This document shows, in pieces, positions 15,339 to 20,438 of a DNA stretch of 64,000 nucleotides; within the stretch, counting starts at the first letter, position 1, and every line of letters starts with the position of its first letter. The notes below the pieces were generated by a model, which made no database searches, was not told the origin of the DNA, and was given only the letters and a program-made list of their open reading frames with translations. The position numbers were made by a program, and so were the translations under genes. The DNA comes from an uncultured Pseudomonadales bacterium (GTDB taxonomy: Bacteria; Patescibacteriota; Microgenomatia; UBA1400; UBA12028), in assembly GCA_964509365.1 (NCBI GenBank), contig CAZDWN010000002.1, positions 3,701-67,700 of the forward strand. The letters run 5' to 3'.

Positions 15339-16565
15339 CTACTCCGTGTGCAATGCTTTGACGACTTTGTCGACAGCGACAGCATACGCTCCCATACGCA
15401 TGGTGACATTGAGCTTCGTCGTCTGTGCGTGACATTGATCAAAAGCGGCAGTGATCGTCTCCTGCAATTTTTTGAGCACATCCTCTTTGTTCCAATGTTC
15501 AACATGTTTATTTTGATACCACTCAAAGTACGAGACGGTGACGCCACCTGAGTTTGCCAAGACATCTGGGACGCTAGTGATCCCACGATTTTTGAGTATG
15601 ACATCTGCTTCCGGAGTGACTGGGCCATTCGCCATCTCGATGATCACTTTCGCTTGGATTTTCTCAGCATTCGCTTCCGTGATCACGGCTTCGAGCGCTG
15701 CCGGGACGAGGACGTCGACATCTAGCATGAGTAAGTCATCTGGCGAGATCTCACTGCATCCATAGCCGCTCAGACTTCCGTGCTCTTTTTTGTATGCGAA
15801 GACTGCTTGTGGATCAAGTCCTTTTGGCTCATACAATGCGACTTTCGAGTCTGACAACGCGACAATCGTATATCCATCTTCCTTTGCTTTCATCGCGAAA
15901 TACGAACCGACATTTCCGATGCCTTGGATCGCGATCGTCGTCCTCGCATGCTCTTTGCCTTGCGCTTCAAACAATCGATTGAGGACATATACTCCGCCAT
16001 ACCCAGTAGCTTCAGTGCGACCTTCACTGCCGCCCTCTTCGATCGCTTTCCCAGTAAAGGATGCAGGCGCTTTGCGTCCAATGGATTTTTCGTATGACTC
16101 ACGCATCCAGTTCATGATGCGGCCATCCGTATTGACGTCTGGAGCTGGTACGTCGATATCTTCACCGATGATGGCAGCAATTTTATCCCCAAATCCACGA
16201 GTGAGATTTTCAAGTTCTGTATTTGAGAGTTTTTTTGGATCGACGATGACGCCGGCCTTGCCTCCCCCAAATGGGATGTCAGCGATCGCACATTTCCAGG
16301 TCATCCACATGGACAGAGCTTTGACTTCAGAGAGACTGACATTTGGATGAAATCGAATCCCGCCTTTGTAGGGACCGCGGGCATTGTTGTGCTGCGAGCG
16401 GTAGCCGGTAAACATCTGTGTGTGGCCATCATCCATGCGCACGGGTATCTGGACAGTGAGGATTCGTTCTGGCTCGAGTAATCGATTGAGATCGTCGGCG
16501 GGAAGATTGATGAGAGAGGCGACTTCTTTGAGTTGGGCTTGCGAAGATGTGAATGGATCGTTCAT
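15339..16565 (-). CDS. gdhA: Glutamate dehydrogenase (Glu/Leu/Phe/Val dehydrogenase family)
   Basis: 408 aa. Catalytic 'KGGIRFHP' lysine motif, 'GGGKAGV', Rossmann 'GIGNVGSY'. Confidence 0.92.
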   Translation of the reverse strand: MNDPFTSSQAQLKEVASLINLPADDLNRLLEPERILTVQIPVRMDDGHTQMFTGYRSQHNNARGPYKGGIRFHPNVSLSEVKALSMWMTWKCAIADIPFGGGKAGVIVDPKKLSNTELENLTRGFGDKIAAIIGEDIDVPAPDVNTDGRIMNWMRESYEKSIGRKAPASFTGKAIEEGGSEGRTEATGYGGVYVLNRLFEAQGKEHARTTIAIQGIGNVGSYFAMKAKEDGYTIVALSDSKVALYEPKGLDPQAVFAYKKEHGSLSGYGCSEISPDDLLMLDVDVLVPAALEAVITEANAEKIQAKVIIEMANGPVTPEADVILKNRGITSVPDVLANSGGVTVSYFEWYQNKHVEHWNKEDVLKKLQETITAAFDQCHAQTTKLNVTMRMGAYAVAVDKVVKALHTE

Positions 16566-16700
16566 ACGAGATACCTCCTCAATAAGGGATCAAGCATACT
16601 CCTAGAGTGATGAATTGTGCAAGGAATTACTTCACGAAAACAAAGACTGCATGCAGACTTGAGGCGTAGCGTATGATGGATCCTACAGTACCCTACTTGT

Positions 16701-17057
16701 ATGATCAATGCCTTTCAAGAAACACGATACCTGGGATGGATGGGGATATTTGTGGTCGGCGACGCCCTCATCATTATCCCGTTTTGGATCCTCCTCACGT
16801 TGATCGCTGTGTTCTTTCATTCCTGGCGCATTTTTGAGCTTGGAGCATCGCTTTTTTGGGTAGTGAGAGGGTTTGGGGAGACGCAATATTGGATCCATGA
16901 GCAGTTTGCTGCCGATCATCGCAATGACCCAAAGAATTTGTTTGGGTATAGTCTAGTCAAGAGTGACGCAATTTGGTTCCTGTATCAGGTATTTTGGCAA
17001 TGTGTGACCGTCCTAGCGCTTCTGAGCTGTTTTCTGATTATTCATACGTATGGATAA
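16701..17057 (+). CDS. Small hypothetical membrane protein
   Basis: 118 aa, three hydrophobic helices. Confidence 0.45.
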   Translation: MINAFQETRYLGWMGIFVVGDALIIIPFWILLTLIAVFFHSWRIFELGASLFWVVRGFGETQYWIHEQFAADHRNDPKNLFGYSLVKSDAIWFLYQVFWQCVTVLALLSCFLIIHTYG

Positions 17058-17121
17058 TCTTATTGTGACTTTTAAATCGAACCAGTATGATTGATCTGAG
17101 AGTGATCAATGTTGTTCGATT

Positions 17122-17811
17122 ATGAAAACAGCTTTAAAAATACAAGCTATTTCCCTTCGACAAGATGGATTGTCCTACAGCGAAATCCTAGCGCAAGTTC
17201 CTGTGGCAAAGTCGACGCTGTCGGCGTGGCTACATTCAGTAGCGCTGGCAAAGCACCAACAACAGCGTTTGTCTGAGAAAAAGCGGCTCTCGGCTCTTCG
17301 AGGCGGAGCAGCTCGCAAAAATGAACGAATTTCAAGACAATCCATCATTATGGAAACAGCCCGAGCAGAAATAGGGCCAATTTCTACTCGTGAGCTTTGG
17401 CTCATGGGGGCTATGCTCTATTGGGCCGAGGGCTCAAAAGAAAAAAAATGGAAAACGGGACGACTCATATCTTTTACGAATTCCGATCCAGCGATGATTC
17501 GAGTTTACCTCGAGTGGGTTAGCATTTGTTTACATGTTCCACTTGAGGATATTGAGTTTGAACTTTATCTGCACGAGTCCCATTCGATTCAAACACATGA
17601 ACACCTTTCATTTTGGACTCAAATCGTAGGAATAGGGTATAATAGGATTGACAGAGTGTATCTGAAGAAAAATATACTCTCCACGAAGCGGAAAAATAGT
17701 AACTCAAATTATCATGGTCAGCTTCGAGTGACTGTAAAGAAAAGTGTTGATTTAAACAGAAAAATCGCTGGTTGGATTGAGGGGATCTGTGCACATTGCC
17801 CTGTCGTCTAA
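17122..17811 (+). CDS. HTH-domain protein with LAGLIDADG-like homing-endonuclease-type core (single motif)
   Basis: N-terminal resolvase-type HTH 'LSYSEILAQVPVAKSTLSAWL'. 'LWLMGAMLYWAEGSKEK...ISFTNSDPAMIRVYLEWV' matches the LAGLIDADG motif plus following beta-strands. A+T-rich. Stop codon lies within tRNA-Gln. Confidence 0.45.
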   Translation: MKTALKIQAISLRQDGLSYSEILAQVPVAKSTLSAWLHSVALAKHQQQRLSEKKRLSALRGGAARKNERISRQSIIMETARAEIGPISTRELWLMGAMLYWAEGSKEKKWKTGRLISFTNSDPAMIRVYLEWVSICLHVPLEDIEFELYLHESHSIQTHEHLSFWTQIVGIGYNRIDRVYLKKNILSTKRKNSNSNYHGQLRVTVKKSVDLNRKIAGWIEGICAHCPVV

Positions 17812-17867
17812 TGGTAGGACTTCAGATTTTGGATCTGAATATTTTGGTTCGAATCCAAGCGGGGCAA
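17797..17867 (+). tRNA. tRNA-Gln (anticodon TTG), no encoded CCA
   Basis: Manual fold: acceptor TGCCCTG/CGGGGCA (one G-U), D-arm GTCT-AATGGTA-GGAC, anticodon stem TCAGA/TCTGA with loop TTTTGGA (TTG), T-arm TTTGG-TTCGAAT-CCAAG. Confidence 0.75.
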
Positions 17868-17872
17868 CATCG

Positions 17873-18406
17873 TTAGTTTTCCATGAGTGCCAAGATTTTC
17901 TTGACCGTGGTGATATTTCGCATTGTCAGTTGCTTGTAAATCGGTTTGGAAATAAGTTTCTTAAACCCACTCTTCATCAAGCCCGCATTTTTGGTAGACA
18001 TGTAGAGCACATGCTCACCCATCTTCAAGAAATCGATATCTTTGGTCAGTTGCGTCTCCTCCCCCACTTGTTTGGGAGTGGCCGGTGGCCTCACAAATGC
18101 GACGTACACCCGATACTCTTTTTTTGGATCATCTTGATATGGACAGTCAGCGACGATTTTTTTGAGTCTCGCGTGAGGACAAAGCACGAGAGTGCCTTCG
18201 TACGAAAATCGTTTGGAGATGGCCGCTTCCAGTTTTTTCGCTAACGCAGTCTCGCTTTCTTGTGACGAAAAGATCACATTGCCACTATTGATGACCGTGA
18301 GCACATCTCTGCAACCGTGAGCCTCAAAGGTTTTTTTGAGCTCAGCCATGTTGACTTGCGTCTTGGTCCCGACATTGATCCCTCGTAAAAACGCAATGTA
18401 GTTCAT
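17873..18406 (-). CDS. DUF1697-family protein
   Basis: 'MNYIAFLRGINVG' N-terminal signature of DUF1697. Start placed at that Met. Confidence 0.65.
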   Translation of the reverse strand: MNYIAFLRGINVGTKTQVNMAELKKTFEAHGCRDVLTVINSGNVIFSSQESETALAKKLEAAISKRFSYEGTLVLCPHARLKKIVADCPYQDDPKKEYRVYVAFVRPPATPKQVGEETQLTKDIDFLKMGEHVLYMSTKNAGLMKSGFKKLISKPIYKQLTMRNITTVKKILALMEN

Positions 18407-18470
18407 CCATCTAGTATAACTCACTGGTTTTGCGTTTGAATGATCGAGTGATCCTTCGTATACTTGGCCA

Positions 18471-20438
18471 ATGGAAAAGACAGCCGACCGACGCATCTAC
18501 GCGCTGGATGGGATCCGTGGGATCGCCATTGTCATCGTCGTGCTCACACACGTGACCTCAAGCTTTATCCAAGCCATTCTGCCTCCATTTCTTGCTCGTG
18601 TCTTTTTCTCCAGTGGTGTCACCGGTGTCTCTCTGCTCTTTATCTTGTCAGGATTTTTCATGGCGCTCATGTATCCAGATCCGAAAGATCGAGCCGCTTT
18701 TATCCACAAGCGCTACACTCGCATCTTCCCGGTGTTTTTGATGATGTGCTTGCTCACGGTCATTGTGAGGATCATCGATCCTCACTGGTATACCGAGATC
18801 GCTCTCTATGTTGCTTTAGCCCTTTCATTTTATGTCGTATGGGTGCACATCGCTCAGCGCTATGCGAGTGCGCAAGTGAAACGCTGGGTGTTTTATGGAT
18901 TTGTCGCATTTCAGTTTCTCGTCGGCGGATTTTATTATTTCTATGTCATGCGCCAACCATCCAATGTCTTTGGCCAAGAGTGGTCCTTGCTCGCACGTGA
19001 ATCGATGACGGGGCTCGTGAATGGGACGCTGACACTGCCGCTTGGCAACTATATCCCCATGATTGATGGAGTGTATTGGAGTCTTGCTGCGGAAGTACTT
19101 TTTTATATTCTCTACGCGATTATTTGTGTCCCGCTGATCAAAAGTCTCATCCCGATCAAACGAGCCTACAAACTCTTTTTGTTGTTGATTTTGATTCCTT
19201 TTTTTGGGGGACTCCATATCCTCGCCACTCGCCTCTTGGGTTTGAGTCTCTTGCGACCGGAGTTTGGATATTACTTTGTGACGGGAATTGTCCTCGGATA
19301 TTTGTATCGGACGAAGAAATCCAGCTTCGAAACTATTCATCGATTCTTTCCAAGTATTCTTGGCCTCTTGCCACTCGCATTTTTCTTTGCGTGTGTCATG
19401 GTCAAAGATCAATCATTTCAATATGTCCCTCGCACGTTTGATCCATGGCTCCATATCTTGTGGGCGATCCCGATGACGCTAGCGATTGCACTGACATTGG
19501 ATCCCAAGATGTTGGTTTCCAAAGTCTTCCGTTGGCGCGGATGTGTCTATTTGGGCACGATCAGCTACTCCATGTATTTAAGTCACTCACTGACGCTGCA
19601 TTTACTCGAGCGAAATATGCCGATCACCAACGCCTCGCAGGATCTGGTGTATGTATTGCTCACACTCATCCTCACGATCGTCGGCTCGACGTTTTTGTAT
19701 ACGTTTTTGGAAAAGCCATATTTCAATCGGTCAGTACTCTCCCCAACGCAAACCGCTCCGACGCTGTTCCCATGGTTTCGGCGTCCCACGACCGTCGCGC
19801 TCATTTGCGGACTGCTCCTTTATGCGGGCATTTTGATCGCGTATCAATCAAATTTCAATTTCTTTTCGATGACGGTCCCAGTCACACATTTGACTATGGA
19901 GTCTCCGACTGTCCTCAAAGAAGGCAAAGCTGATATGTCTGCAAATCCGACGGTGAAGTTCTCATTTGTTTCACCTCACGATGACTTTGGAGTATTGACG
20001 CTCAAACTCGTGCACGTGTCGAAGCATGGCGAAGCGTTGAAAAAACAGCGACTCAATTTCTCCATCAAAGAAGACGGGCAATCTGATTGGTATGCTACCA
20101 ATTCCTACGCGCTTGAAGAGATCGGAGCGACCGATGGTGATCCGTACGGGTTCCCTGTGATCCGTGACGCGACGGGGAAAACATACGATGTAGAGTTCTC
20201 GCTGGAAGCGATCGACTCTCCCGATTCCGCAGTGCTGGATTTGTCATCGGTGAGTGGCGTGTACACGGTCAGTAAGAAAGATATCCTGACGCACCCGCTG
20301 ACACTGGTTCGCTATACGCTTGCGAGAGTCGAAGATGTCTTTGTGTTTGCCGATGCCAAGCGCATCCTCGTGTATGTCACCCCGACATTCTTGTTTTTTC
20401 TTGCTGTCTATCTTCACAAACGCGATCCAAATCGCTAG
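18471..20438 (+). CDS. Acyltransferase-3 family membrane O-acyltransferase with ~200-aa C-terminal extracytoplasmic domain
   Basis: 'RRIYALDGIRGIAIVIVVLTHV' start typical of PF01757 acyltransferases. About 10 TM, then a soluble non-SGNH domain. Confidence 0.8.
   Translation: MEKTADRRIYALDGIRGIAIVIVVLTHVTSSFIQAILPPFLARVFFSSGVTGVSLLFILSGFFMALMYPDPKDRAAFIHKRYTRIFPVFLMMCLLTVIVRIIDPHWYTEIALYVALALSFYVVWVHIAQRYASAQVKRWVFYGFVAFQFLVGGFYYFYVMRQPSNVFGQEWSLLARESMTGLVNGTLTLPLGNYIPMIDGVYWSLAAEVLFYILYAIICVPLIKSLIPIKRAYKLFLLLILIPFFGGLHILATRLLGLSLLRPEFGYYFVTGIVLGYLYRTKKSSFETIHRFFPSILGLLPLAFFFACVMVKDQSFQYVPRTFDPWLHILWAIPMTLAIALTLDPKMLVSKVFRWRGCVYLGTISYSMYLSHSLTLHLLERNMPITNASQDLVYVLLTLILTIVGSTFLYTFLEKPYFNRSVLSPTQTAPTLFPWFRRPTTVALICGLLLYAGILIAYQSNFNFFSMTVPVTHLTMESPTVLKEGKADMSANPTVKFSFVSPHDDFGVLTLKLVHVSKHGEALKKQRLNFSIKEDGQSDWYATNSYALEEIGATDGDPYGFPVIRDATGKTYDVEFSLEAIDSPDSAVLDLSSVSGVYTVSKKDILTHPLTLVRYTLARVEDVFVFADAKRILVYVTPTFLFFLAVYLHKRDPNR

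What the first reader, a model, noticed from the sequence alone, without database searches (positions are those of the whole stretch)
17122..17867. HTH plus LAGLIDADG-like protein whose stop codon lies inside tRNA-Gln(TTG)
The 229-aa ORF has a resolvase-type HTH and a single LAGLIDADG-like motif ('LWLMGAMLYWAEGSK' plus beta strands), is A+T-rich, and ends 15 nt into the 5' acceptor stem of an apparently intact tRNA-Gln. LAGLIDADG enzymes are classic homing endonucleases of tRNA/rRNA introns. A free-standing, HTH-fused copy abutting a tRNA could be a domesticated endonuclease or regulator, or the footprint of an intron/homing event at this tRNA.
Basis: partly seen in the sequence, partly recalled or inferred. 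Interest (0 to 1): 0.6.

Follow-up and report, generated by a model that had tools for sequence, protein, structure and literature searches.

The report
Endonuclease-like gene riding on tRNA-Gln
The ORF belongs to a very large, unnamed protein family (a DNA-binding helix-turn-helix plus a distant LAGLIDADG-like domain) that almost always sits directly against a tRNA gene, which is the behaviour of a selfish homing-endonuclease-type gene rather than an ordinary regulator.

Summary
A 229-aa ORF (17122-17811, +) ends 15 nt inside an intact, intron-free tRNA-Gln(UUG) (17797-17868).

The ORF is a real gene from a large family with no name in any library searched:
- The family has at least 5,810 clusters at 50% identity.
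- It has no Pfam, NCBIfam, PHROGs, PADLOC or PDB-sequence match beyond the N-terminal HTH.

The link to a tRNA gene is family-wide:
- 79 of 80 Patescibacteria genomes carry tRNA-Gln(UUG) on the same strand, 16 nt of overlap to 27 nt of gap from the ORF stop in 68 of the 71 measured (3 read through the tRNA).
- All 12 loci from Actinomadura and similar high-GC organisms carry it too, in either orientation.
- All 16 distant relatives in large-phage contigs lie in or beside tRNA gene runs of many specificities.

The gene is accessory. The same dnaX|tRNA-Gln junction occurs with and without it in closely related lineages. Two loci keep a tRNA-Gln 5' half just upstream of the ORF.

LAGLIDADG profile models do not match. 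However, tandem-duplicated actinobacterial forms give a model that weakly resembles I-DmoI and phage LAGLIDADG proteins, and the motif glutamate (E103) is invariant in the two alignments made.

A hairpin with a promoter-like box inside it abuts the start codon, as described for phage T4 homing endonuclease genes.

Best reading (0.55): a resident, free-standing homing-endonuclease-like gene, co-transcribed with the tRNA. Nuclease activity is untested.

The parts
17063..17091 (+). Promoter-like site, TTGTGA - 17 nt - TATGAT. Its -10 box lies in the inner part of the 5' arm of the hairpin.
   Evidence: Consensus scan, 9 of 12 matches. This is a pattern match only. In relatives a TATAAT-like box sits in the same place.
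17075..17121 (+). Inverted repeat, arms 17075-17091 and 17105-17121 (AATCGAACCAGTATGAT / ATCAATGTTGTTCGATT), ending at the base before the ATG. It is a candidate hairpin that masks the start codon, or an operator.
   Evidence: Found as pair I8. RNA fold of 17070-17127: -14.6 kcal/mol, z -2.68. A GAAC...GTTC(GA) repeat abutting the ATG recurs across the family: arms of 9 or more pairs in 26.5% of 83 loci against 0.7% of control positions. It is also seen in phage relatives.
17122..17811 (+). ORF of 229 aa: HTH, a long basic helix, and a C-terminal alpha/beta domain.
   Evidence: 835 homologs by word-indexed search and 5,810 clusters by exhaustive profile search. AlphaFold2 mean pLDDT 88. Non-synonymous divergence from the closest relative is far below synonymous divergence (dN 0.27; dS about 3, saturated), which indicates purifying selection.
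17131..17235 (+). N-terminal helix-turn-helix, residues 4-38. The recognition region VPVAKSTLSxWL is nearly invariant.
   Evidence: HTH_23 at E 0.004. HTH_23 matches 24 of 32 members, HTH_SB 6 and HTH_7 6. Predicted helices 2-14, 19-25 and 30-39.
17377..17808 (+). C-terminal domain, residues 86-229. It has no family in any library searched and is a candidate divergent LAGLIDADG-like nuclease core.
   Evidence: Secondary structure: helix 89-103, strand 117-120, helix 123-136, strand 144-151, helix 158-169, strands 176-182 and 200-205, helix 209-225. Invariant residues: G96 L99 W101 A102 E103 G104 K106 K108 F118 N120 D122 H151 K182 R190 N192 Y197 G199 S208 N212 R213. Weak structural link to I-DmoI and DOD proteins, seen only with the tandem model.
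17416..17439 (+). Motif LYWAEGSK, residues 99-106, at the C-terminal end of helix 89-103. E103 is encoded at 17428-17430.
   Evidence: The core WAEG is invariant among the 32 CPR relatives. It appears as YWCEG in the actinobacterial forms and as LYWAEG in the phage relatives.
17797..17868 (+). tRNA-Gln(UUG): intact, no intron, no encoded CCA.
   Evidence: ARAGORN. Rfam tRNA 61 bits, full length.
17797..17811 (+). 15-nt overlap. The last four codons and the stop (TGC CCT GTC GTC TAA) are tRNA positions 1-15.
   Evidence: Read directly from the sequence. The same 15-nt overlap occurs in 29 of 71 measured loci, with 2 more at 16 nt. It also occurs for dnaX at sites that lack the ORF.

Best explanation
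**What it is.** The ORF is a resident copy of a free-standing, homing-endonuclease-like selfish gene that specialises in tRNA genes. Its protein has an N-terminal HTH and a C-terminal domain that is probably a very divergent LAGLIDADG-type nuclease core. That core would work as a dimer; some Actinomycetota carry it as a tandem-duplicated single chain.

**Proposed mechanism (shown steps and inferred steps are marked):**
1. The gene sits immediately 5' of tRNA-Gln(UUG) with no room for a separate tRNA promoter (shown). The tRNA would therefore be made from the ORF's transcript and released by RNase P (inferred). The insertion costs the host little, much as splicing makes an intron-borne endonuclease gene harmless.
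2. A hairpin abuts the start codon and carries a -10-like box inside it (shown). Read-through transcripts would mask the start and stay untranslated, while transcripts that start inside the hairpin would be translated (inferred, by analogy with T4 I-TevI, segB and mobE). The HTH may also bind this palindrome and repress its own promoter (inferred).
3. The protein recognises tRNA-gene DNA in genomes that lack the ORF and cuts it. Repair then copies the ORF next to the tRNA (inferred). This would explain the patchy distribution at one fixed site and the reappearance of the family next to native tRNA-Gln(UUG) genes in a distant phylum and inside phage tRNA arrays.

**The window copy.** It has been inherited vertically with its flanks since the split from its closest known relative. 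It is intact and under purifying selection.
For: **Linkage to tRNA genes**
- tRNA-Gln(UUG) follows the ORF on the same strand in 79 of 80 Patescibacteria genomes. Of the 71 loci where the spacing could be measured, 68 lie between a 16-nt overlap and a 27-nt gap.
- It also follows in the three closest relatives of the window protein examined and in 3 metagenome loci.
- In 12 of 12 high-GC loci the tRNA lies within about 120 nt of the ORF's 3' end (in two it overlaps the called ORF end). It is on the same strand in 5 and the opposite strand in 7. The acceptor stems are of the actinobacterial type, so these are native tRNAs.
- 16 relatives on IMG/VR viral contigs (E 1e-20 to 1e-48 against the family profile) lie in or beside tRNA gene runs. 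Their 3' ends abut tRNA-Leu, -His, -Cys, -Lys or -Ile within 15 nt in 6 of them.

**Accessory and mobile behaviour**
- ORF-less dnaX|tRNA-Gln junctions exist (L132, L145, L169, L163, L139, L208). They interleave with filled ones when ranked by DnaX similarity.
- tRNA-Gln 5' halves (positions 1-34 and 1-37) lie directly upstream of the ORF in L005 and L003 (nhmmer E 3.8e-6 and 1.6e-7).
- ORF divergence is decoupled from host divergence at short range. DnaX differs by 8% between L030 and L063, but the ORF differs by 38%. The ORF is also mosaic there: its 5' 330 nt are 82% identical and the C-terminal domain cannot be aligned.

**Nuclease-like protein**
- E103 and G104 are invariant at the end of a helix that also carries the invariant glycine G96.
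- Tandem-duplicated forms exist.
- The tandem model has pTM 0.77 and matches I-DmoI with a target-normalised TM-score of 0.61 and prob 0.98. DOD/LAGLIDADG proteins recur in the viral library hits.

**Regulatory anatomy**
- A hairpin with an internal -10-like box abuts the ATG. This is the arrangement described for T4 homing endonuclease genes, including segB (PMC2988022).

**Precedent**
- T4 SegB sits in a tRNA cluster, recognises the T-psi-C motif and drives its own inheritance (PMC2330249).
- HNH endonuclease genes lie next to bacterial tRNA arrays (PMC8421152).
Against: - No nuclease family is recognised by any profile library searched, and no PDB chain matches by sequence.
- All structural matches have non-significant E-values (0.006 to 0.6).
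- The predicted topology has an extra strand-helix unit compared with the canonical LAGLIDADG core (alpha-beta-beta-alpha-beta-beta-alpha).
- The single-domain model matches only IspF-like folds, and those weakly.
- No decayed copies were seen, although the searches favoured intact genes.
- No systematic sequence difference separates ORF-linked tRNA-Gln genes from ORF-less ones. This leaves unexplained how a resident copy would avoid cutting its own tRNA gene.
- The window copy has no flanking tRNA fragment. It is syntenic with its closest relative, so nothing shows it is mobile now.
- The distance correlation with DnaX is positive (Mantel r 0.53), so much of the inheritance is vertical.
- Only two loci carry 5'-half remnants.
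Confidence: 0.55

Rival explanations
1. A domesticated, catalytically inactive DNA-binding regulator, similar in spirit to WhiA. The HTH dimer binds the palindrome over its own promoter and thereby sets transcription of itself and of the co-transcribed tRNA-Gln(UUG).
For: - The HTH is nearly invariant.
- A palindrome overlaps a -10-like box directly upstream of the ATG in many loci.
- There is no separate promoter space before the tRNA.
- The gene is under purifying selection and has kept its neighbours in the window's lineage.
- T4 I-TevI is itself an autorepressor (PMC2988022), so regulation and a nuclease origin can coexist.
Against: - About 20 invariant polar residues in the C-terminal domain, including the motif glutamate, are not needed for a plain repressor.
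- The gene is absent from many close relatives that have the same tRNA locus.
- In 7 of 12 high-GC loci the tRNA is on the opposite strand, so co-transcription cannot be the reason for the linkage.
- Phage relatives sit next to tRNAs of many specificities.
- No WhiA profile matches.
Confidence: 0.2
2. A new kind of site-specific recombinase or transposase belonging to a minimal integrative element. The element would insert at the anticodon loop of tRNA-Gln(UUG) and carry its own tRNA 5' half, or a whole tRNA, to restore the gene.
For: - tRNA-Gln 5' halves ending at positions 34-37 lie directly upstream of the ORF in L003 and L005.
- The dnaX C-terminus of L040 looks like a decayed copy of the first 15 nt of the tRNA.
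- The HTH resembles transposase and resolvase HTH domains.
- The tRNA is found in either orientation in the high-GC loci.
Against: - No recombinase or transposase catalytic domain is detected.
- The old 5' halves do not pair with the 3' half of the current tRNA in L005 (read), so a simple crossover model fails.
- No terminal repeats or target duplications were found around the window copy.
- There are only two remnants.
- L058 has an intact tRNA-Gln(CUG) upstream of the ORF, so the remnants may be decayed neighbouring tRNA-Gln genes.
Confidence: 0.1
3. An RNA-binding factor for tRNA-Gln(UUG), or for tRNAs in general in the phage relatives. It would be kept next to its substrate gene and act in processing, modification or sensing.
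For: - The tight and specific linkage to tRNA genes.
- The core topology (strand-helix-strand-helix-strand-strand) and the weak IspF-type matches. From my own knowledge, this topology is shared by some RNA-binding folds.
- A long basic helix at residues 52-83.
Against: - The gene is accessory: many close relatives with the same tRNA lack it.
- The N-terminal domain is a DNA-type HTH.
- The tandem-duplicated forms and the I-DmoI/DOD matches point to a two-fold-symmetric DNA enzyme.
- No RNA-binding family is detected.
Confidence: 0.1
4. The adjacency and overlap are an accident of genome compaction and have no biological meaning.
For: - In ORF-less sites, dnaX overlaps the same tRNA by the same 15 nt. 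The exact overlap is therefore a by-product of the tRNA's 5' sequence, TGC GGG GTC GTC TAA.
Against: - The adjacency itself holds in 79 of 80 species genomes, in a second phylum and in phage tRNA arrays.
Confidence: 0.03

Closest known systems
Free-standing homing endonuclease genes in tRNA gene clusters ('intronless homing'): T4 SegB, and the HNH genes beside bacterial tRNA arrays
   Same: - The gene is lodged between or against tRNA genes.
- Distribution among relatives is patchy at a fixed site.
- A hairpin abuts the start codon and has a promoter-like box inside it, as described for segB, I-TevI/II/III and mobE (PMC2988022).
- SegB recognises the T-psi-C motif of tRNA genes (PMC2330249). 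The palindrome arms here often read GGTTCGA(A/T), which resembles that motif.
   Different: - The catalytic domain is neither GIY-YIG nor HNH.
- The hosts are mainly cellular chromosomes (Patescibacteria, Actinomycetota), with one preferred tRNA, Gln(UUG).
- No cleavage or inheritance data exist.
LAGLIDADG (DOD) homing endonucleases, such as I-CreI (homodimer) and I-DmoI (tandem monomer)
   Same: - A helix with a conserved glycine (G96), ending in an invariant acidic residue followed by Gly (AEG).
- Both single-domain and tandem-duplicated forms exist.
- The tandem model matches I-DmoI (target-normalised TM-score 0.61) and viral DOD proteins.
   Different: - No LAGLIDADG profile matches.
- The two conserved glycines are 8 residues apart, rather than about 6 as I recall for LAGLIDADG (from my own knowledge).
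- The model has an extra strand-helix unit between the second helix and the last hairpin.
- An N-terminal HTH and a long basic helix are added.
WhiA (two degenerate LAGLIDADG domains plus a C-terminal HTH; a transcription factor of Gram-positive bacteria). The description is from my own knowledge.
   Same: - It combines a LAGLIDADG-type scaffold with an HTH.
- It is chromosomal.
- Its own promoter is a possible target.
   Different: - The domain order is reversed.
- This protein has a single C-terminal domain.
- The motif acid is kept here.
- The gene is accessory rather than core.
- No WhiA profile matches.
LAGLIDADG endonucleases encoded in rRNA insertion sequences and introns of CPR bacteria (PMC11270868)
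   Same: - Same host group.
- The same strategy of targeting a highly conserved RNA gene.
   Different: - Those lie inside the RNA gene and are removed from the RNA. This one lies outside an uninterrupted tRNA.
- That paper does not mention tRNA.

Membership tests
LAGLIDADG/DOD homing endonucleases | Match to LAGLIDADG profile models (Pfam LAGLIDADG_1, _2, _3 and relatives) | tested here: not met
   No hit for the window protein at E up to 10. Only 1 of 32 relatives touches LAGLIDADG_3, at E 0.13. The family profile finds nothing among PDB sequences.
LAGLIDADG/DOD homing endonucleases | Core fold alpha-beta-beta-alpha-beta-beta-alpha, paired through the motif helices | tested here: inconclusive
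LAGLIDADG/DOD homing endonucleases | Conserved acidic residue at the C-terminal end of the interface helix | tested here: met
   E103-G104 is invariant in 32 CPR relatives. The equivalent residues are invariant in both repeats of the actinobacterial forms and present in the phage relatives. This is sequence-level evidence only.
LAGLIDADG/DOD homing endonucleases | Works as a homodimer or as a tandem-repeat monomer | tested here: met
   Proteins of 424-591 aa carry two full copies of the unit. Dimerisation of the 229-aa form is inferred, not shown.
LAGLIDADG/DOD homing endonucleases | Site-specific DNA cleavage | not testable with these tools
   This needs biochemistry.
Free-standing homing endonuclease genes of tRNA clusters (SegB type) | Gene lies within or against tRNA genes, with presence/absence among relatives at the same site | tested here: met
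   Adjacency. Empty and filled dnaX|tRNA-Gln sites.
Free-standing homing endonuclease genes of tRNA clusters (SegB type) | GIY-YIG or HNH catalytic domain | tested here: not met
   No such domain in the Pfam, NCBIfam or PHROGs scans.
Free-standing homing endonuclease genes of tRNA clusters (SegB type) | Hairpin that masks the translation start, with a promoter placed inside it | tested here: inconclusive
   The pattern is clear in many CPR and phage loci. In the window the hairpin is modest (z -2.68) and the promoter is a 9-of-12 consensus match. No transcript data exist.
Free-standing homing endonuclease genes of tRNA clusters (SegB type) | Preferential inheritance in crosses | not testable with these tools
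   This needs genetics.
Intron-encoded endonuclease of a tRNA intron | ORF lies inside an intron that interrupts the tRNA | tested here: not met
   The tRNA is continuous and full length. Rfam finds only the tRNA in 16000-19000, with no intron family.
WhiA | Two LAGLIDADG-like domains followed by a C-terminal HTH, and a match to WhiA profiles | tested here: not met
   The HTH is N-terminal, there is one C-terminal domain, and no WhiA family appears in the Pfam or NCBIfam results.
Serine recombinase / resolvase | N-terminal resolvase catalytic domain together with an HTH_7 domain | tested here: not met
   Only the HTH matches, and weakly, in 6 of 32 members. No resolvase domain is found.
IS630/Tc1 or IS3 transposases | DDE catalytic domain after the HTH | tested here: not met
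   The IS3 model matches only residues 5-69 (14.8 bits against a cut-off of 160). No DDE family is found in Pfam.

The most novel reading that the evidence does not exclude
This is a previously undescribed family of homing endonucleases: an HTH plus a remote LAGLIDADG-like core. It parasitises tRNA genes from the outside. It would insert exactly at the 5' edge of a tRNA gene and rely on RNase P processing, instead of splicing, to remain harmless. A hairpin with an internal promoter would keep read-through transcripts untranslated. Because its stop codon lies inside the tRNA, RNase P cleavage and translation termination would compete on the same transcript. The family would be active across Patescibacteria, some Actinomycetota and large phages, with different members aimed at different tRNA genes.
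Probability: 0.35. Interest if true: 0.8.

Novelty: new variant of a known kind. Interest (0 to 1): 0.66.

Why it matters
- **A large unknown gets a hypothesis.** If correct, this assigns a function to a very large family of 'hypothetical' proteins. The family has at least 5,810 clusters at 50% identity and is found in at least 585 species genomes.
- **A new class of selfish gene in small genomes.** It would add a class of selfish gene to the small genomes of Patescibacteria, where endonucleases borne on rRNA insertions are already known.
- **A different way to stay harmless.** It would show a route to phenotypic neutrality other than introns and inteins, namely sitting in the leader of a tRNA that is cut out by RNase P.
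- **Possible tools.** It would offer a natural panel of compact, DNA-sequence-specific enzymes aimed at different tRNA genes. Both dimeric and single-chain versions exist, which is of interest for enzyme engineering.
- **Annotation.** Gene callers sometimes read the ORF through the tRNA and produce false C-terminal tails.

Tried and rejected
- **Wasted search.** A homolog search with an 82-aa fragment returned one hit and cost one capped search.
- **tRNA fragments around the window ORF.** None were found. No meaningful direct repeats flank it either.
- **'Immune' tRNA alleles.** No consistent difference in the anticodon arm or elsewhere separates ORF-linked from ORF-less tRNA-Gln genes.
- **HTH sequence against palindrome type.** GKTY in the first HTH helix tracks the AGGTAGG-type palindromes. 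However, the recognition helix is identical in both types, so the correlation is probably phylogenetic. I rejected it as evidence.
- **Similarity of palindrome arms to the locus's own tRNA.** There is only modest enrichment: matches of 8 nt or more in 14.8% against 6% of controls. I kept this as a lead, not a result.
- **Vehicles.** There are no relatives in the deposited phage genomes (INPHARED) or in plasmids (PLSDB). They appear only in IMG/VR contigs.
- **Defence-system models (PADLOC).** Nothing was found.
- **RecR replacement after dnaX.** I considered this because of the dnaX neighbourhood. I rejected it because no RecR or Toprim model matches, and in the actinobacterial loci the family lies beside glmU-prs, not dnaX.
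- **Literature.** The paper searches turned up no description of this family or of an ORF-tRNA-Gln pairing.
Full report
**1. The observation**

The ORF at 17122-17811 (+, ATG, 229 aa) and tRNA-Gln(UUG) at 17797-17868 (+) are both present. The Rfam tRNA model matches at 61 bits over its full length, and no other RNA family appears in 16000-19000. The tRNA is therefore intact and has no intron.

The ORF's last four codons and its stop (TGC CCT GTC GTC TAA) are tRNA positions 1-15. The stop lies in the D-arm, not the acceptor stem. ORF GC is 43.5% against 46.8% for the window, so the gene is hardly A+T-rich.

**2. The protein is real, widespread and unnamed**

- A word-indexed search finds 835 relatives. 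Those listed are about 225-257 aa and about 50% identical, and the few that carry a name are mostly called 'hypothetical protein', from Parcubacteria, Wolfebacteria, Liptonbacteria and Yanofskybacteria.
- A profile search of 1.84 billion representatives finds 5,810 clusters at E of 1e-3 or better, and 638 at 1e-30 or better.
The 80 kept loci are almost all labelled as Patescibacteria lineages, or carry uninformative or doubtful labels.
- Pfam sees only a weak HTH, which matches in 24 of 32 relatives. NCBIfam, PHROGs and PADLOC also see only the HTH or nothing, and the PDB sequence searches find nothing.
- AlphaFold2 gives a confident model (pLDDT 88) with three parts: a three-helix HTH, a long helix at 52-83, and a C-terminal alpha/beta domain.
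- About 20 polar residues of the C-terminal domain are invariant, including E103-G104 at the end of helix 89-103.
- Against the closest relative, dN is 0.27 and dS is saturated, which indicates purifying selection.

**3. The link to a tRNA gene is the defining property of the family**

*Patescibacteria.* In 79 of 80 species genomes, tRNA-Gln(UUG) follows the ORF on the same strand. The spacing was measured in 71 loci:

| Position of tRNA start relative to ORF stop | Loci |
|---|---|
| 15-nt overlap | 29 |
| 16-nt overlap | 2 |
| gap of 0 to 27 nt | 37 |
| ORF call reads through the tRNA | 3 |

The conserved protein tails C-G/P/R-V/I-V are simply the translated 5' end of the tRNA.

*High-GC bacteria.* The family also occurs in Actinomadura and Allonocardiopsis and in uncultured lineages. 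There it takes the form of 285-300-aa proteins with an extra HTH, or 424-591-aa proteins with two full copies of the unit.

In all 12 such loci tRNA-Gln(UUG) lies next to the ORF's 3' end, 39-118 nt away in ten and overlapping the called ORF end in two. It is on the same strand in 5 and on the opposite strand in 7. I checked the strand by eye in L091. These tRNAs have actinobacterial-type acceptor stems, so they are native genes and not imports.

*Viral contigs.* Sixteen relatives on IMG/VR viral contigs of 12-500 kb match the family profile at E 1e-20 to 1e-48. They lie in or beside tRNA gene runs. Examples:

| Locus | tRNA upstream | tRNA downstream | Distance from ORF stop to downstream tRNA |
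|---|---|---|---|
| L216 | Leu | Leu | 15-nt overlap |
| L220 | Met | His | 12-nt gap |
| L222 | not adjacent | Cys | 1-nt gap |
| L229 | Ile | Lys | 1-nt overlap |
| L226 | none | Ile, opposite strand | 4-nt gap |

**4. The gene is accessory and behaves like an insertion at one site**

- In 51 of 81 CPR loci, dnaX lies upstream of the ORF on the same strand, within 100 nt in about half of those measured.
- An unbiased scan for the tRNA-Gln D-arm found CPR contigs where dnaX is followed directly by tRNA-Gln(UUG) with no ORF (L132, L145, L169; L163, L139 and L208 have short spacers). Only 3 of the sampled tRNA-Gln(UUG) loci carried the ORF.
- Ranked by DnaX identity to one filled locus, empty and filled sites interleave: EMPTY 70%, filled 69% and 68%, EMPTY 64%.
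- In the empty sites L145 and L169, dnaX itself ends '...SCGVV*' in the same D-loop TAA. The exact 15-nt overlap is therefore a by-product of the tRNA sequence. The adjacency is the part that carries meaning.
- Two filled loci keep a tRNA-Gln 5' half directly upstream of the ORF's hairpin. These are L003 (positions 1-37, E 1.6e-7) and L005 (positions 1-34, E 3.8e-6), and both stop at the anticodon.
- ORF divergence is poorly coupled to host divergence at short range. Pairs with DnaX distance below 0.2 already have ORF distance 0.34-0.37. L030 and L063 differ by 8% in DnaX and 38% in the ORF, with a mosaic break inside the gene. Overall the Mantel r is 0.53.
- The window copy is an old resident. 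Its closest relative keeps the order gdh / 118-aa gene / ORF / tRNA, with amino-acid identities of 83%, 77% and 66%. No tRNA fragments flank the window copy.

**5. Is it LAGLIDADG-like?**

Profile models say no. The single-domain model finds only weak IspF-type matches.

The natural tandem-duplicated forms argue for a two-fold-symmetric assembly:
- Their model has pTM 0.77.
- It places I-DmoI at rank 2 in the PDB, with target-normalised TM-score 0.61, prob 0.98 and E 0.085.
- It repeatedly hits proteins named DOD-type or LAGLIDADG homing endonuclease in the viral library (E 0.055-0.6). Other top hits (E from 0.006) are large ribonucleotide reductases, a helicase and a portal protein, hosts in which inteins are common (my inference).

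With the invariant glutamate at the end of the helix, I read this as a remote, unproven relationship. It is not membership.

**6. Regulatory anatomy**

An inverted repeat ends at the base before the ATG. In the window the arms are 17075-17091 and 17105-17121, with a fold z-score of -2.68. A -10-like box lies within it.

Across 83 loci, arms of 9 or more pairs occur in 26.5% against 0.7% of control positions. Of the 22 such loci, 16 have a TAnnAT box in the loop. The outer bases GAAC...GTTC(GA) are conserved and the inner bases vary while staying complementary.

Phage relatives show the same layout, often with GGAG in the 3' arm.

This is the arrangement described for T4 I-TevI, I-TevII, I-TevIII, segB and mobE. 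There, read-through transcripts fold and hide the ribosome-binding site, while transcripts that start inside the hairpin are translated. I-TevI also represses its own promoter through an operator that resembles its homing site. The same review notes that an endonuclease ORF running into structured RNA can disturb folding if it is translated (PMC2988022). The ORF here runs into the tRNA in the same way.

**7. Most likely mechanism**

*Shown:*
- the gene, its conservation and its family-wide adjacency to tRNA genes;
- the presence/absence polymorphism at a fixed site, and the two tRNA half-remnants;
- the tandem forms;
- the hairpin pattern.

*Inferred:*
- The tRNA is transcribed through the ORF and released by RNase P.
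- The hairpin limits translation.
- The HTH binds the palindrome.
- The C-terminal domain is a nuclease that cuts ORF-less tRNA loci and so drives copying of the gene.

SegB gives a direct precedent. It sits in a tRNA cluster, recognises the T-psi-C motif and is inherited at nearly 100% in crosses (PMC2330249). HNH endonuclease genes also lie beside bacterial tRNA arrays (PMC8421152).

*Unexplained:*
- how a resident copy spares its own tRNA gene, since no allele difference was found;
- how the 5'-half duplications arose.

**8. Verdict**

The finding is best filed as a new variant of a known kind: a free-standing homing-endonuclease-type gene at tRNA genes, with an uncharacterised catalytic domain and an unusual outside-the-gene position. 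Confidence in that reading is 0.55. The main rival is a domesticated regulator, at 0.2.

Noticed in passing
L001-L080 (for example L008 4855-6177, minus strand); L043 1193-1220 and 1284-1311: The 3' side of tRNA-Gln(UUG) is an integration hot spot in CPR genomes. In 10 of 81 loci a serine recombinase of about 440 aa follows the tRNA on the opposite strand. In 10 of 81 a 91-aa GIY-YIG protein follows it. L043 has a 28-nt direct repeat of the tRNA 3' end 62 nt downstream, which looks like an attachment-site scar.
   Followed up: partly
L145 2217-2231; L169 1610-1624: Where the ORF is absent, the dnaX gene ends in the same TAA of the tRNA-Gln D-loop, with a 15-nt overlap and the tail ...SCGVV*. 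Any gene entering this tRNA in that frame stops there.
   Followed up: yes
L003 2590-2661; also L014, L041, L044, L132: Several CPR tRNA-Gln genes have the anticodon loop CCUUGGA. This puts C where the almost universal U33 is expected.
   Followed up: no
Proteins P0106, P0077, P0087 (alignment A1, columns 240-262): Some database gene calls read the ORF through the tRNA. They carry false C-terminal tails such as SSNGRTSPFGGEYF, which are translated tRNA sequence.
   Followed up: yes
window 17075-17121; L019, L037, L063, L079 just upstream of the ATG: The arms of the upstream palindrome often read like the tRNA T-arm (GGTTCGAAT) or D-arm (GGTAGGAC). Matches of 8 nt or more to the locus's own tRNA occur in 14.8% of loci against 6% of control positions. 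This may hint at a shared recognition motif, as for SegB.
   Followed up: partly
L058 3838-3911 and 4675-4747: In one locus the ORF is flanked by two intact tRNA-Gln genes, CUG upstream and UUG downstream. This offers another origin for the 5'-half remnants seen in L003 and L005.
   Followed up: no
L054 4001-4690: This is the only one of the 80 CPR loci in which no tRNA-Gln follows the ORF. A tRNA-Lys lies upstream on the opposite strand. I did not examine the locus further.
   Followed up: no
L216-L231 (IMG/VR contigs of about 12-500 kb): Many of these viral contigs carry dense tRNA gene runs. Up to 23 tRNA genes lie within 5 kb in L225, with family members nested between them.
   Followed up: partly
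window 15339-16565 (minus strand) and 16701-17057 (plus strand): The neighbours of the ORF are a glutamate dehydrogenase and a 118-aa hydrophobic protein. Both are kept in the same order in the closest relative, L213.
   Followed up: partly
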